Shown: one piece after another, positions 12,001 to 15,000 of the stretch
Position numbering within the stretch: the stretch's first letter is position 1
Layout of the letters: the number at the start of each line of letters is the position of its first letter
Origin: a virus
Lineage: Duplodnaviria > Heunggongvirae > Uroviricota > Caudoviricetes
Reading direction: 5' to 3' (one strand)
IMG/VR virus record: IMGVR_UViG_2671181056_000012
Location: 1 to 17,566 of that record
DNA: 17,566 bases
Made by a program: the position numbers

Positions 12001-15000
12001 AAATACAATCCCCATATAAATAATAGTGAGCGGTTAACGCTCTTTTTTAAGAAATCATTAATCCACATTGTAGGAGGATTCGAGATGGCACGACCTGTTA
12101 AGTTCACTCGCGAAATCATCTTAGAAATGGCTAAACGCTACTTTGAGTTAACGCCGGGTGTGAGAATTGAAGAGTGGTTTAAAAATGAGGGTATCGATAA
12201 ATCAACCTTTCATAAACTCTTAAAGAAGTATGACATTAAAGTAAAGATAACCGCAGAGGTTTACTGATACTTTGACTGAGAATTATATGATGGCTTTAAA
12301 AAAAGAAAAAGCCTCCCTTGTTGCAGCAAAGGAGGCTTGAAATGAACAATTAAAACTAACTTTCCACGGAGTATTTATAATGTTATTTTCCGCTAACTTT
12401 TTCACTAACGAAGTAACCAACGCTAAAGCAGTTATCAAATTTGGCACCGAAGCAAACAAGAAGATTCAGCCGAAAGTTGTTGCTCATGTTTCCTTTGCGC
12501 AGCAGAAATCCGCTTTCGCTGGCTTTAAAGCACATCGTGAAGCACTGATCGCGGCTGGCTTTGGTGTTGACGGTAAACTGCCTAACGGCATTCGTAAAGC
12601 AATCGACCGCGTTAAACCTGCTAAAGACGTTGCAGTAGACCACATCGTTACTTTTACCGTTAAGAACTCTTCTGAACTGTTCCACCTGGTTATTGCTGGT
12701 GATACTGCTATCGTTTCCGCTCCTAACATGGATTTTCAGGATACCGCTGATTGCCAGATCACCTTCGGTCGTCGTAAAGAAGTTACCGGAAAAGCTAAAC
12801 TGAACTTCACTAAATCCGGCAATCCTTACTTTGCTGTATTCTTTAACAGCCACGCTACCGAAAAAGAAGTTGTAGAACTGGTTGCTTATGAAGGTGAAGA
12901 GAAAGAACGTATTGAATCTTGCGAAGCATTTCTGGAACTGGAAGCACAGGTGAATGCTGTTTCTCCGGTTGTTGAAGATCGCTTTGCTGCACTGGAAGCA
13001 CAGATCGCAGAACTGAAAGCTGCACTGGAAGAAAAAGACCAGATTATCGAAGCACAGAAAGCTGAGATTGAAGAACTGAAAGCTAAAGAAGTTGCTCCGG
13101 TGGCAGTAGTTGAAAACGCGGCTGATGAGGCCGCAAATGATGAAGTAGAAGTGAAAATCGATGTGATGCGTGATCCGATGGCTGCACTGCAATTACTTCG
13201 TTCTTTTAAGGGCAAATCTCATTTTTCTAGTGATGTAGAAGATGAGGAAGAAGAACAGAAACGCAATGCTGCAATGCTTCATGATGAAATGTACGGTACT
13301 AACTTTTCTTACTGCCAATAAAAAAGGGACTCCGAAGAGTCCCTAGTAAGTTTAGGTTAGGTTTGCACAACAAAGATGAGGTTATAATGAACATAATGCT
13401 ACATTATTCTTTAAAGCCAGAAAAATAACCGCCCCGAAGGGGCGGGAGGATTAATACTCAATCTATACTTGTTATGTTTTTATGTTGTATAGTCACTGAC
13501 TATGAAAACACTGTACTGAATGTGTTTTATGGCTTTTAATCGGGAACTCTCTTTCGAAAATTCCCTGTTAAAACCACATAAGGAGAAATGGCAGATTACA
13601 ATATTATTTAGTCTGTTTGAAAACAAACGTTAAAAATTCGATTAAGCAATATACCCAGCATACAGTAAGCAGTAGATGCATAGAAATAGCCGGATGGAAG
13701 TTAAAAAGTGTCATACTAACTAGGCCAACAATATAAGAAATTCCCTCGACAATTAACGCGAGACTAGAAAATGCAACAAACGCACCTAAGAATAATTCAG
13801 CACGTTCTCTATTTTCGGTTCCGAGTTTATAAGCAGAAATAACAGCCAGAATAGTAATGATGACAGCATAGGTAATAAAAGTAGCCATAGTTTTATATCC
13901 TCTTAAAAGTTAAGCGGGGGATGTTCTCCCCCGTAGACGTTGACCCGTTCAACATCTTTCATACATTTATTTATAACGCGTTTTAAGACACATCAAATTC
14001 ATCGTCTTCTTCTGGTTCTTGTTCTTCCGGTTCATCCATTAATGGTAATTCTTCTTCCTCGTCTTCTCCCAAATCTGCATTTTCGAACAAGTCCCCTACT
14101 TCATTTAAACGACGCTCGATGATCTCCCTTAGCTTATTCTTCAATGTTTTCTGGTCAGTGGCAGATTCGAGAATTTCTAAAGCGTCGATTGTGGCGATCT
14201 GCAAAATAGTCTGCTTCACTTTTCCGCAATATTCCGCTAGTTGCTGTTCTACATACCCGACGGGAATCAGGAGATTCATTGCTTCCTGGTTCTCTCGTTC
14301 GGCTGCGTCCGCTAATGCTCTCTCGCGGCGTAACTTCTCTACGTCGATTTGTTCTTTGACAGTAGCCCCCTCTGTCAGGATAGTTGTCACCCCCATCGAA
14401 AATACTAATGACAAGATGGGAACAGATCGTGAAACGAATTTCACCAGAACGTAAATCGGCTGCACTGGCTAAATTACTACCGCCTTACAACATGACCGTC
14501 ACCGCAGTTGCGCAGATGGAAGGGATATCGGAAGCTACCCTTTATTACTGGCGTAACAAGGCGAAAGCAGAGGGAATACCGGTGCCGGGTGCAAACAAAA
14601 CTACAGACCAATGGTCAGCCGAAGCCCGGCTGGCTGTGATTATCGAAACAGCTACACTCAGCGAAACAGAACTCGCGCAATACTGCCGTAAAAAAGGGCT
14701 TTACCTGGAACAGATTAGTCAGTGGAAACAAGGCTTTTTGCAGGTGTCTTCGCCCACTGACAAAGCGGCGCTCAAACAAAGCCAGAAAGAAGTTAAACAA
14801 CTAAAACGCGAACTGCTTCGTAAGGAAAAGGCGCTGGCGGAGGCGGCAGCGATACTGGTGCTGCGAAAGCAGTTGCGGGATTTTTACGGGGAAACCGACG
14901 AGGACGACTGACGCCCGGAACAGAGCGGCAGGCACTTATCGGTTACGTGCGGGACGCGATGGCGTCAGGAGCTCGGCTGTCAATAGCGCTGACGGAAGCG

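What the first reader, a model, noticed from the sequence alone, without database searches (positions are those of the whole stretch)
12380..13321. Terminator-insulated 313-aa gene with host-optimal codon usage and unknown function
This gene uses highly expressed-gene codons throughout, matching only the capsid domain in this window, which implies a very abundant product. The architecture (globular N-domain, ~60-aa coiled coil, acidic tail) and its location outside the structural operon fit an abundant non-structural protein such as an SSB-like factor, a host-takeover protein or a decoration/scaffold protein. I do not recognise the family.
Basis: partly seen in the sequence, partly recalled or inferred. 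Interest (0 to 1): 0.6.

Follow-up and report, generated by a model that had tools for sequence, protein, structure and literature searches.

The report
Abundant orphan early protein of prophage
This is a real, strongly conserved gene with the best host-adapted codons in an uncharacterised E. coli prophage; it belongs to no known protein family or fold, and its context suggests a very abundant early regulator built like phage antirepressor-type proteins, not a single-stranded-DNA-binding (SSB) or capsid protein.

Summary
The 313-aa ORF (12380-13321, +) is real. Among E. coli alleles it shows 31 synonymous against 8 non-synonymous differences. Its codon adaptation index (CAI) is 0.64, 8.6 SD above expectation from the other phage genes and the highest in the ~37-kb prophage. 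High CAI recurs in two orthologues (0.62, 0.72). The predicted layout holds: a basic beta-rich N-domain (pI 9.75), a ~55-residue helix, and an acidic disordered tail.

"Terminator-insulated" is only half right. All three flanking hairpins are minus-strand terminators, and that orientation is conserved as far as Proteus. They block antisense and convergent transcription rather than ending the gene's own mRNA.

The gene always follows a 60-aa helix-turn-helix gene, beside an iteron-rich control region with tandem consensus promoters. Its coiled coil joins either of two C-terminal modules. One module also occurs behind an ORF6N (antirepressor-type) domain in a single short metagenome contig that also matches this locus's downstream flank.

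Best reading (~0.35): an abundant, stoichiometric early regulator of the antirepressor-like modular kind with a new N-terminal specificity domain. Function is inferred, not shown.

The parts
12380..13321 (+). CDS of 313 aa (stop codon included); the finding itself
   Evidence: 31 synonymous vs 8 non-synonymous differences among E. coli alleles; CAI 0.64
12380..12904 (+). N-terminal domain (aa 1-175): basic and beta-rich, a new family. The N-terminus MLF[ST]AN[FI]F is conserved in all homologues with this domain (M1, L2, F3, A5, N6 and F8 invariant).
12923..13087 (+). Long helix / coiled coil (aa 182-236). It is a recombination joint: 96% DNA identity over 13008-13107 to the ORF6N-bearing contig L020.
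   Evidence: only coiled-coil Pfam noise
13088..13318 (+). C-terminal 'module A' (aa 237-313): acidic, mostly disordered, with the conserved motif MLHDEMYGT. Other alleles carry 'module B' (VExWNKY...RAA/KAA) instead.
   Evidence: CAI lower here
12368..12371 (+). Shine-Dalgarno GGAG, 8 nt before the ATG
   Evidence: read; the block GGAGTATTTATAATG is conserved in L005 and L003
12299..12338 (-). Intrinsic terminator on the minus strand (12-bp stem plus T-run), between the 60-aa gene and the target's ribosome-binding site
   Evidence: more stable as minus-strand RNA in 4 lineages, with compensatory stem changes; present in Proteus
13315..13344 (-). Minus-strand terminator 1 downstream (TTCG loop on the minus strand); its T-run overlaps the target's stop codon
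13419..13445 (-). Minus-strand terminator 2 downstream; ends the convergent small-terminase / 94-aa operon
   Evidence: two minus-strand terminators lie at the same place in Proteus
12276..12300 (+). Conserved intergenic block GAGAAnnATATGATGGCTTTAAAAA, with a -10-like TATGAT (12286-12291) and a poor -35; a possible weak own promoter
12085..12267 (+). 60-aa helix-turn-helix-like gene, always immediately upstream of the target in every lineage examined
   Evidence: weak HTH_Tnp_1 hit
12028..12052 (+). Short plus-strand terminator-like hairpin plus T-run, just before the 60-aa gene; conserved in all lineages (a possible attenuator of the leader transcript)
11606..11663 (+). Two overlapping near-consensus sigma-70 promoters (TTGACA-17-TATACT and TTGACA-18-TATAAT, both with TG) facing the 60-aa and target genes
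   Evidence: equivalents are visible in L005, L003 and L023
11326..11566 (.). Array of about 9 or more iterons, TTTCAGGGGCAAAAAT, whose sequence differs between phage lineages
   Evidence: (0 of 200 shuffles reach the count)

Best explanation
The gene encodes a very abundant early protein of an uncharacterised family of serine-recombinase prophages of Enterobacterales. It is built like the modular 'antirepressor-type' phage regulators (ORF6N / Rha / KilA-N / Bro-N class). A specificity domain at the N-terminus is here a new basic, beta-rich domain. It is followed by a ~55-residue coiled coil that oligomerises the protein, probably as a dimer, and then by an exchangeable acidic C-terminal partner-binding module.

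Proposed mechanism (inferred). The protein is transcribed from the tandem strong early promoters, and possibly from a weak promoter of its own, downstream of a 60-aa helix-turn-helix gene. It acts stoichiometrically rather than catalytically, which would explain the selection for very high translation. Its N-domain binds a lineage-specific target belonging to the adjacent control region. That target is either the iteron DNA itself or the protein that reads the iterons. The C-terminal module then recruits or blocks a partner. Three conserved minus-strand terminators keep convergent transcription from the packaging operon from running antisense through the gene and into the control region.

Shown here: the gene is real; the codon bias; the architecture; the positional conservation; the module swapping; the terminator orientation. 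Inferred: abundance, timing of expression, the target, and stoichiometric action.
For: (1) CAI is 0.64, z = 8.6, the top of 38 prophage genes. The neighbouring leftward genes next to the control region rank second and fifth. Two orthologues score 0.62 and 0.72.
(2) The gene holds the same position in seven further loci (L003, L005, L021, L023, L025, L026, L027), spanning Salmonella, an unidentified host (L005), Proteus and Providencia, and again in E. coli PEC41 (L028). The order is always control region, 59/60-aa HTH gene, minus-strand hairpin, a 305-380-aa gene, then the convergent small-terminase gene.
(3) Modularity. The same N-domain carries module A (window) or module B (P0137, P0124, E. 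coli PEC41). Module B with the same coiled coil follows an ORF6N domain in P0131. The P0131 contig matches the window's coiled-coil DNA at 96% and its downstream flank at 94%, which makes it an allele of this locus. In Proteus and Providencia the positional orthologue has an N-domain with no detectable similarity but the same coiled coil plus module B.
(4) The N-domain is basic (net +8) and the rest is acidic.
(5) Iteron sequence follows N-domain type. AGGGGCAAAA goes with N-domains 55-100% identical to the window. ACGGACAAAA goes with a 37% identical domain. CTAGGGAT(G/A) and TAGTGTAGG go with the non-homologous domains. The intervening 60-aa protein does not follow this pattern; it is 87% identical in the variant-iteron lineage.
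(6) A small DNA-binding gene directly upstream, with a minus-strand terminator in the intergenic space, recalls the P22 arc-ant-sar layout (own knowledge of P22 immI).
Against: No sequence or fold similarity links the N-domain to ORF6N, KilA-N, Bro-N, Rha, P22 Ant or any DNA-binding fold. The model is only moderately confident (mean pLDDT 65).

The ORF6N allele rests on one 1.5-kb metagenome contig. It could be an assembly chimera joined in the shared coiled-coil segment, and no complete E. coli genome carries its ORF6N part.

The small terminase follows iteron type as well as the N-domain does. Its overall identity is 73% in same-iteron lineages and 51-56% in the others, and its putative recognition helix changes in step. 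The iterons may therefore be packaging sites unrelated to this protein. All of this covariation rests on only seven further loci that fall into four iteron types.

No convincing minus-strand promoter for a sar-like antisense RNA was found (reading). No repressor has been identified in this phage. Expression level and timing were not measured.
Confidence: 0.35

Rival explanations
1. Anti-defence or host-takeover protein, or a prophage-expressed defence protein in the manner of BstA. The abundant protein would use a fast-diverging N-domain to bind a host or competitor-phage component. The acidic tail could mimic nucleic acid or recruit a partner.
For: It has high CAI and lies next to strong early promoters. 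The N-domain is recognisable in E. coli and Salmonella lineages but not in Proteus or Providencia, even though the large terminase is about equally diverged (56-57%) in L005 and in Proteus; this fits host-specific targeting. The gene is intact in the window although the prophage is disabled by an IS in the small-terminase gene. BstA is a prophage protein with two functional domains that is highly expressed in lysogens (PMC8585504).
Against: It is a core gene at a fixed position in every lineage examined, not an accessory gene. There is no significant PADLOC hit; the only hit, to LmuB, is weak (E 0.004) and lies over the coiled coil. There is no KilA-N-like domain. The N-domain is under strong purifying selection within E. 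coli, with 13 synonymous and 2 non-synonymous differences. Only the tail is acidic, not the whole protein.
Confidence: 0.2
2. Origin-binding replication initiator or replisome organiser. The N-domain would bind the adjacent iterons, the coiled coil would dimerise it, and the C-terminal module would recruit the phage helicase or a host replication protein, as lambda O does.
For: An iteron array lies directly upstream in every lineage and varies with N-domain type. Its size (~300 aa) and N-terminal binding plus C-terminal recruiting layout resemble lambda O (own knowledge). In relative L005, three perfect DnaA boxes and AT-rich repeats lie immediately upstream of the orthologue. The prophage has a helicase but no recognisable initiator.
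Against: There is no winged-helix or other initiator fold, and no PHROG replication hit better than E = 0.017. Initiators are normally scarce, not the best codon-adapted gene of a phage. The small terminase follows the iterons equally well. The window itself has no perfect DnaA box.
Confidence: 0.15
3. High-copy virion component: a capsid decoration protein or head/neck fibre, with an N-domain that binds the shell, a coiled-coil stalk and an exchangeable distal tip.
For: Codon adaptation equals that of the capsid domain and exceeds that of the tail tube. The layout of a beta-rich base, a coiled coil and a variable tip resembles phi29 head fibres or fibritin (own knowledge). The gene is next to the small-terminase operon.
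Against: It is outside the head and tail modules, on the opposite strand, downstream of early-type sigma-70 promoters. Its coiled coil plus module B is shared with an ORF6N antirepressor-type protein. It has no fold match to any viral structural protein in BFVD or PDB. The other high-CAI genes are its non-structural neighbours of 110 and 150 aa.
Confidence: 0.1
4. SSB-like or single-strand-annealing protein (T7 gp2.5-like): an abundant DNA-binding N-domain with an acidic C-terminal tail that contacts replication proteins.
For: Likely abundance, a basic N-domain, an acidic tail and no recognisable SSB or recombinase elsewhere in the prophage.
Against: No OB-fold, Rad52-like, Erf or RecT similarity by sequence or fold. 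A 55-residue coiled coil is not a feature of these families. The protein ends in FSYCQ rather than an acidic-aromatic tip, and the C-terminal module is exchangeable. Wholesale N-domain replacement between genera would be odd for a generic ssDNA binder.
Confidence: 0.07

Closest known systems
ORF6N / Rha / KilA-N / Bro-N modular phage regulators ('antirepressor-like' proteins; domain shuffling described by Iyer, Koonin & Aravind 2002, own knowledge)
   Same: An N-terminal specificity domain is followed by a coiled coil and an exchangeable C-terminal module. One real ORF6N protein (P0131) carries this gene's coiled coil (96% DNA identity) and the alternative module B, with the same downstream flank. 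The gene lies in the early/control region next to a Rha-family gene.
   Different: The N-domain matches none of these domains by profile or fold. It is predicted mostly beta, with a 7-strand meander. Codon adaptation is far higher than that of the phage's own Rha gene (0.39-0.41).
P22 immI module (arc - ant - sar antisense RNA), own knowledge
   Same: A small DNA-binding protein gene lies directly upstream of a ~300-aa gene in the same orientation. An intrinsic terminator for the opposite strand sits in the short intergenic space. A stoichiometric antirepressor that must be made in quantity would explain the codon bias.
   Different: There is no homology to Arc, or to Ant via Pfam's P22 antirepressor domains. 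No credible minus-strand promoter was found; the best candidates are a -10-like TATAAA without a -35, or GTGAAA-17-CATTAT (reading). The repressor target is unknown.
Lambda O and iteron-plasmid Rep initiators (own knowledge)
   Same: About 300 aa, with an N-terminal binding domain and a C-terminal recruiting region. The gene is adjacent to an iteron array that varies by lineage.
   Different: There is no winged-helix fold. The iterons lie about 800 bp upstream behind promoters, a leader and another gene, not inside or abutting the gene. The codon adaptation is extreme.
BstA prophage defence proteins (PMC8585504)
   Same: A prophage protein made of two functional domains. BstA is highly expressed in lysogens and has an N-terminal DNA-binding-type domain.
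   Different: No KilA-N-like domain and no significant PADLOC hit. The gene is core and positionally fixed in its phage family rather than accessory.
T7 gp2.5 / bacterial SSB (own knowledge)
   Same: Likely abundance; a basic N-terminal region with an acidic C-terminal region.
   Different: No OB fold, a long coiled coil, a different C-terminus, and an exchangeable C-terminal module.

Membership tests
ORF6N / Rha / KilA-N / Bro-N antirepressor-like regulators | N-terminal domain matching one of these Pfam/PHROG families | tested here: not met
ORF6N / Rha / KilA-N / Bro-N antirepressor-like regulators | Modular build: exchangeable N- and C-terminal domains shared among phage regulators | tested here: met
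   The same N-domain occurs with module A or module B. Module B plus the coiled coil also occurs behind ORF6N and behind two unrelated N-domains.
P22-type immI (Arc/Ant/sar) | Small DNA-binding regulator gene immediately upstream in the same transcription unit | tested here: inconclusive
   A 59/60-aa HTH-like gene is always upstream. It has no homology to Arc, and its function is untested.
P22-type immI (Arc/Ant/sar) | Antisense RNA across the ribosome-binding site, with its own promoter and terminator | tested here: inconclusive
   A minus-strand terminator is present and conserved. No promoter reaches the scan threshold.
P22-type immI (Arc/Ant/sar) | Homology to Ant (Pfam P22_AR_N / P22_AR_C / ANT) | tested here: not met
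   No Pfam hit at E <= 1.
SSB / T7 gp2.5-like | OB-fold DNA-binding domain | tested here: not met
SSB / T7 gp2.5-like | Acidic extreme C-terminus ending in a hydrophobic or aromatic residue | tested here: not met
   The acidic run DVEDEEEE lies 23 residues from the end. The protein ends ...GTNFSYCQ, and other alleles end in RAA or KAA.
Iteron-binding replication initiators (lambda O, Rep winged-helix proteins) | Recognisable initiator DNA-binding fold or family | tested here: not met
   No Pfam, PHROG or NCBIfam hit; no winged-helix match.
Iteron-binding replication initiators (lambda O, Rep winged-helix proteins) | Cognate iterons next to the gene, co-varying with the protein | tested here: inconclusive
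   The iterons follow N-domain type across the window and seven further loci, four iteron types in all. They follow the small terminase's HTH equally well.
BstA defence proteins | KilA-N-like N-domain / match to the defence-system HMMs | tested here: not met
   PADLOC gives only a weak coiled-coil hit to LmuB; no KilA-N hit.
Capsid decoration / head-fibre proteins | Presence in virions at high copy number; trimeric stalk | not testable with these tools
   No cultured relative carries the gene. There is no structural match in BFVD or PDB.

The most novel reading that the evidence does not exclude
The N-terminal ~175 residues are a previously undescribed fold. It would act as a lineage-specific recognition domain, either reading the phage's own iterons directly or neutralising the protein that reads them. 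That would make this the abundant master organiser of a combined origin, packaging and early-promoter region in an unstudied family of serine-recombinase siphophages. The domain would be interchangeable in nature with ORF6N-type domains.
Probability: 0.25. Interest if true: 0.6.

Novelty: new variant of a known kind. Interest (0 to 1): 0.45.

Why it matters
The best codon-adapted gene of a prophage found in about 1% of complete E. coli genomes (62 of 5426) has no assignable family or fold. If the protein is the abundant specificity factor of this phage group's control region, it would add a new domain to the shuffled 'antirepressor-like' regulator toolkit. It would also give a handle on how these serine-recombinase prophages, which have no recognisable repressor or initiator, run their switch or replication. 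It further shows that 'terminator-flanked' genes need strand-aware reading, because here the terminators shield the gene from antisense transcription. If the protein instead proves to be a routine structural or accessory protein, the finding is ordinary phage dark matter.

Tried and rejected
- Minus-strand gene: the 269-aa antisense ORF was rejected because of its Phe/Cys-rich translation and the pattern of synonymous differences in the plus frame.
- Homology searches: Pfam, PHROGs, NCBIfam, PADLOC, PDB phmmer and profile searches, and tblastn against 50,697 phage records all gave nothing significant.
- Distribution: the 1.84-billion-representative search gave three real clusters plus repeat-protein artefacts (P0130, P0132). 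GTDB species representatives gave none. IMG/VR gave only copies at least 98% identical. Plasmids gave none.
- Second AlphaFold2 run on P0137, aimed at module B: the module was not modelled (pLDDT below 50).
- Profile search with module B: one hit only.
- hhalign of the window-type N-domain against the Proteus/Providencia N-domain: no homology detected. A shared N-terminal motif F[ST]xN[VIF][FH]xN[ED] leaves deep divergence possible.
- sar-like antisense promoter: nothing above threshold.
- LexA boxes: one perfect CTGT-N8-ACAG lies inside the ORF at 12834-12849. The count is at chance level, and the encoded residues differ in two orthologues.
- DnaA boxes in the window: none perfect.
- Discriminating test using lineage L003, which pairs a variant N-domain with an L005-type small terminase: both contigs end at the edge of the iteron array, showing one degenerate copy, TTTCACCCAAAAAT.
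- Literature: nothing on the protein accession or on a prophage inserted in ycdX.
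Full report
**1. What the window is**

The window carries the right-hand part of an E. coli prophage. On the minus strand lie a lambda-type portal, a GpA-type large terminase and a fusion of an S78 prohead protease with an HK97-type capsid protein. A Rha-family gene is also present. An intact copy in E. coli PSJ-22 is about 37 kb long and is inserted in ycdX. It carries a large serine recombinase, a GIY-YIG nuclease and a DEAD/DEAH helicase at the other end, and it has no annotated repressor or replication initiator. The target gene lies two genes from the right prophage end.

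In the window itself the small-terminase gene (PHROG 57) is split by an IS3-type element at about 14384-15942. This copy of the prophage is therefore defective for packaging, yet the target ORF is intact.

**2. Checking the observation**

The ORF at 12380-13321 (+) encodes 313 aa and has GGAG 8 nt upstream of the ATG.
- The other window genes score 0.20-0.50, and eight flanking host genes score 0.25-0.40.
- Re-drawing synonymous codons from the usage of the other phage genes gives 0.42 +/- 0.026. The observed value is 8.6 SD higher, and none of 5000 draws reached it.
- In the complete prophage it ranks first of 38 genes, ahead of the tail tube (0.52) and the capsid fusion (0.50 overall, 0.6-0.8 within the capsid domain).
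- Two orthologues are also high, 0.72 in L005 and 0.62 in L003. The bias is therefore a maintained property.
- CAI drops to 0.42-0.53 over residues 226-313.

Among 13 distinct E. coli alleles there are 31 synonymous and 8 non-synonymous differences, and 13 against 2 in the N-domain. This confirms the plus frame. It also dismisses the long antisense ORF at 12383-13192 as a by-product of the codon bias.

AlphaFold2 with 10 homologues gives three parts:
- a beta-rich N-domain (pLDDT 80-90 over residues 30-115) made of three strands and three helices followed by a seven-strand meander;
- a continuous helix at 182-236;
- a low-confidence tail.

An independent run on a 76%-identical homologue reproduces this topology. 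The N-domain has pI 9.75 (net +8) and the remainder is acidic.

**3. The terminators point the other way**

Three hairpins flank the gene, and for each the T-run is on the minus strand. The two downstream hairpins have TTCG loops on the minus strand.

The upstream hairpin (12309-12338) has a C-A mismatch as plus-strand RNA that becomes a G-U pair as minus-strand RNA. It is 1.4-4.7 kcal/mol more stable on the minus strand in E. coli, L005, Salmonella and Proteus. The mismatch position and the stem sequence differ between lineages.

The same set of one upstream and two downstream minus-strand terminators exists in Proteus. The two downstream terminators end the convergent operon of the small terminase and a 94-aa gene. 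The upstream one stops any remaining antisense transcription before it reaches the 60-aa gene and the control region.

The gene has no canonical terminator of its own. 'Terminator-insulated' is therefore right only in the sense of being shielded against antisense transcription.

**4. Homology and fold**

Pfam, PHROGs, NCBIfam and PADLOC give only weak hits, nearly all over the coiled coil. PDB sequence and profile searches give nothing. No deposited phage genome encodes a relative of the target or of two divergent homologues.

An exhaustive phmmer scan of 1.84 billion cluster representatives returns the protein itself and fragments of it, plus two true relatives at 50% and 34% identity. It also returns a chimeric relative, P0131, and two repeat-protein artefacts.

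Further homologues come from Salmonella. GTDB species representatives have none, and IMG/VR holds only copies at least 98% identical.

**5. Context**

Across the window and seven further loci in E. coli, Salmonella, an unidentified host (L005), Proteus and Providencia, the order of features is the same:
- Rha and small leftward genes;
- a 1.1-1.5-kb non-coding region;
- a 59/60-aa HTH-like gene;
- the minus-strand hairpin;
- a 305-380-aa gene;
- the convergent small-terminase gene.

A further E. coli strain, PEC41 (L028), shows the same order.

The non-coding region of the window contains:
- at least nine iterons, TTTCAGGGGCAAAAAT, at 11326-11566;
- a second repeat family, TCTAGAATCATCTAGTA;
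- two TAGTGTAG(G) motifs;
- two overlapping near-consensus sigma-70 promoters at 11606-11663, aimed at the 60-aa and target genes.

A leader of about 380 nt follows. It ends at a short, conserved plus-strand terminator-like hairpin at 12028-12042.

The leftward neighbours of 110 and 150 aa have the second and fifth highest CAI in the prophage. The genes bordering this control region are thus collectively optimised. That fits early, high-level expression better than a virion role.

**6. Modularity**

The coiled coil is a joint between exchangeable parts.
- The window-type N-domain carries either 'module A' (acidic, with the motif MLHDEMYGT; found in the window, P0136, P0140 and P0141) or 'module B' (VExWNKY..., ending RAA or KAA; found in P0124, P0137 and E. 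coli PEC41).
- P0131 is an ORF6N protein (Pfam E = 1e-20; PHROG 'anti-repressor' E = 1e-33) with the same coiled coil and module B.
- The P0131 contig matches the window at 96% over 13008-13107 and at 94% over the downstream flank 13316-13612. It is therefore an allele of this same locus in which ORF6N replaces the new N-domain.
- The Proteus and Providencia positional orthologues keep the coiled coil and module B, but their N-domains show no detectable similarity. Yet the large terminase is no more diverged in Proteus (56%) than in L005 (57%), where the N-domain is still 55% identical.

This pattern is typical of the shuffled ORF6N / Rha / KilA-N / Bro-N 'antirepressor-like' regulators (own knowledge: Iyer et al. 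2002).

Caveat: the ORF6N allele is a single 1.5-kb metagenome contig, and no complete E. coli genome contains its ORF6N part. A chimeric assembly cannot be excluded.

**7. Iteron covariation and its limits**

| Locus | Iteron core | N-domain identity to the window |
|---|---|---|
| Window | AGGGGCAAAA | 100% |
| L027 | AGGGGCAAAA | 78% |
| L026 | AGGGGCAAAA | 75% |
| L005 | AGGGGCAAAA | 55% |
| L023 | ACGGACAAAA | 37% |
| Proteus | CTAGGGAT(G/A) | not detectable |
| Providencia | TAGTGTAGG | not detectable |

The 60-aa protein lying between the iterons and the gene does not follow this pattern. It is 87% identical in L023 and 67% in L005, with an identical putative recognition segment.

The small terminase, however, follows the pattern equally well. 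Its overall identity is 73% in the same-iteron lineages and 51-56% in the others. The putative recognition helix of its Nu1-like HTH reads NAAKK or NGAKK in the first group and PAVRK, QAVNK or QAVKK in the second.

The one lineage that could separate the two candidates is L003/L004. It pairs a variant N-domain with an L005-type small terminase, but both contigs break at the edge of the array and show only a degenerate TTTCACCCAAAAAT. That copy resembles the L023 type, which weakly favours the N-domain. Attempts to find longer contigs failed. The covariation is suggestive but not decisive.

**8. Interpretation**

I consider the best-supported reading to be an abundant early protein of the antirepressor-like modular kind. 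In this reading:
- a new N-terminal domain supplies lineage-specific recognition of the iterons or of their binding protein;
- the coiled coil oligomerises the protein;
- the C-terminal module contacts a partner;
- stoichiometric action accounts for the codon optimisation.

An upstream small DNA-binding gene, with an opposite-strand terminator in the intergenic space, resembles the P22 arc-ant-sar layout. No credible antisense promoter was found, though. I put this reading at about 0.35.

The rivals, each detailed in its own section, are:
- anti-defence, host takeover or BstA-like defence, 0.2 (comparison from PMC8585504);
- an iteron-binding initiator, 0.15; three DnaA boxes sit directly upstream of the L005 orthologue;
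- a virion decoration protein or fibre, 0.1;
- an SSB or annealing protein, 0.07.

**9. Novelty and verdict**

The gene and its extreme codon adaptation are real, and the family is new. The terminator claim needs re-orienting.

The case is a new variant (a new N-terminal domain) of a known kind of modular phage protein. It sits in an unstudied prophage family present in about 1% of complete E. coli genomes.

Interest is moderate (0.45). There is no demonstrated function, but there is a clear and cheap experimental path.

Noticed in passing
window 10700-12084: A 1.1-1.4-kb stretch without ORFs holds at least four repeat families. These are the lineage-specific iterons TTTCAGGGGCAAAAAT (11326-11566), TCTAGAATCATCTAGTA (10958-11183), TAGTGTAG(G) x2 just before the promoters (11571-11590), and GCTCnCCGCTTTAGCAAnnnGTGCT x2 in the leader (11792-11896). 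It also has several GC hairpins and tandem consensus promoters. It looks like a combined origin, packaging-site and early-control region. Which protein reads which repeat is unknown.
   Followed up: partly
window 11670-12052 (+): The strong promoters would first make a leader of about 380 nt. It ends at a short terminator-like hairpin plus T-run (12028-12052) that is conserved in E. coli, Salmonella and Proteus relatives. This could be an attenuator, a non-coding RNA or a primer-like transcript. No Rfam family matches it. The 109-aa minus-strand ORF across it (11790-12119) is probably spurious.
   Followed up: partly
window 13983-16169: The Nu1-like small-terminase gene (PHROG 57) is split into 13983-14465 and 15939-16169 by an IS3-type element (HTH_Tnp_1 plus rve ORFs at 14384-15942, GC 54-58% against about 40% around it). 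This prophage copy should be unable to package DNA.
   Followed up: yes
L005 7690-7885: In a relative, a roughly 325-nt insert between the 60-aa gene and the orthologue carries three perfect DnaA boxes (AGTTATCCACAA at 7690 and 7710, ACTTATCCACAA at 7849) and AT-rich repeats. It looks like an origin-unwinding region. The window lacks this insert and has no perfect DnaA box.
   Followed up: partly
window 7876-8478, 8507-8740, 12085-12267: Three paralogous small HTH-like ORFs are present: the C-terminus of the 200-aa protein, the 77-aa protein and the 60-aa protein (BLAST E from 1e-5 to 1e-7 between them in relatives). They could be Cro-, excisionase- or recombination-directionality-type factors for the serine recombinase. 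None matches a curated family.
   Followed up: partly
window 9790-10122 and 10243-10695 (-): The 110-aa and 150-aa genes that leave the control region leftwards also have high CAI (0.50-0.55 and 0.47-0.48; the 158-aa homologue of the 150-aa gene in L005 scores 0.60). The 150-aa protein ends in a strongly acidic tail (DEQDEDDDDY...). Both are orphans and may act together with the target.
   Followed up: no
window 1742-3748 (-): The capsid gene is a single 668-aa fusion of an S78 prohead protease, a ~150-residue highly acidic Glu-rich linker (scaffold-like) and an HK97-type capsid domain. CAI rises from about 0.3 in the protease to 0.6-0.8 in the capsid part.
   Followed up: partly
window 12834-12849: A perfect CTGT-N8-ACAG palindrome (LexA-box-like: CTGTATTCTTTAACAG) lies inside the target ORF. 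The number of such matches in the window is at chance level, and the encoded residues differ in two orthologues, so it is probably fortuitous.
   Followed up: partly
window 8860-8869: A single perfect copy of the iteron core AGGGGCAAAA lies far from the array, just outside the 3' end of the Rha gene.
   Followed up: no
window 16823-17173 (-); L021 11734-12165: A HicB-like antitoxin gene lies beyond the small-terminase end of the prophage in the window, and a HicB-like_2 gene lies at the equivalent side in the Proteus relative. The window's right end therefore differs from the ycdX junction seen in E. coli PSJ-22.
   Followed up: no
C-termini of module-B alleles (P0124, P0128, P0131, P0135, P0137; L028 2873-3835): Most module-B alleles end in [KR]AA-COOH; the two Proteus alleles end in KNVA. 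This is reminiscent of ssrA-like ClpX recognition tails (own knowledge), so these variants might be protease-controlled. The window's module A ends differently (FSYCQ).
   Followed up: no
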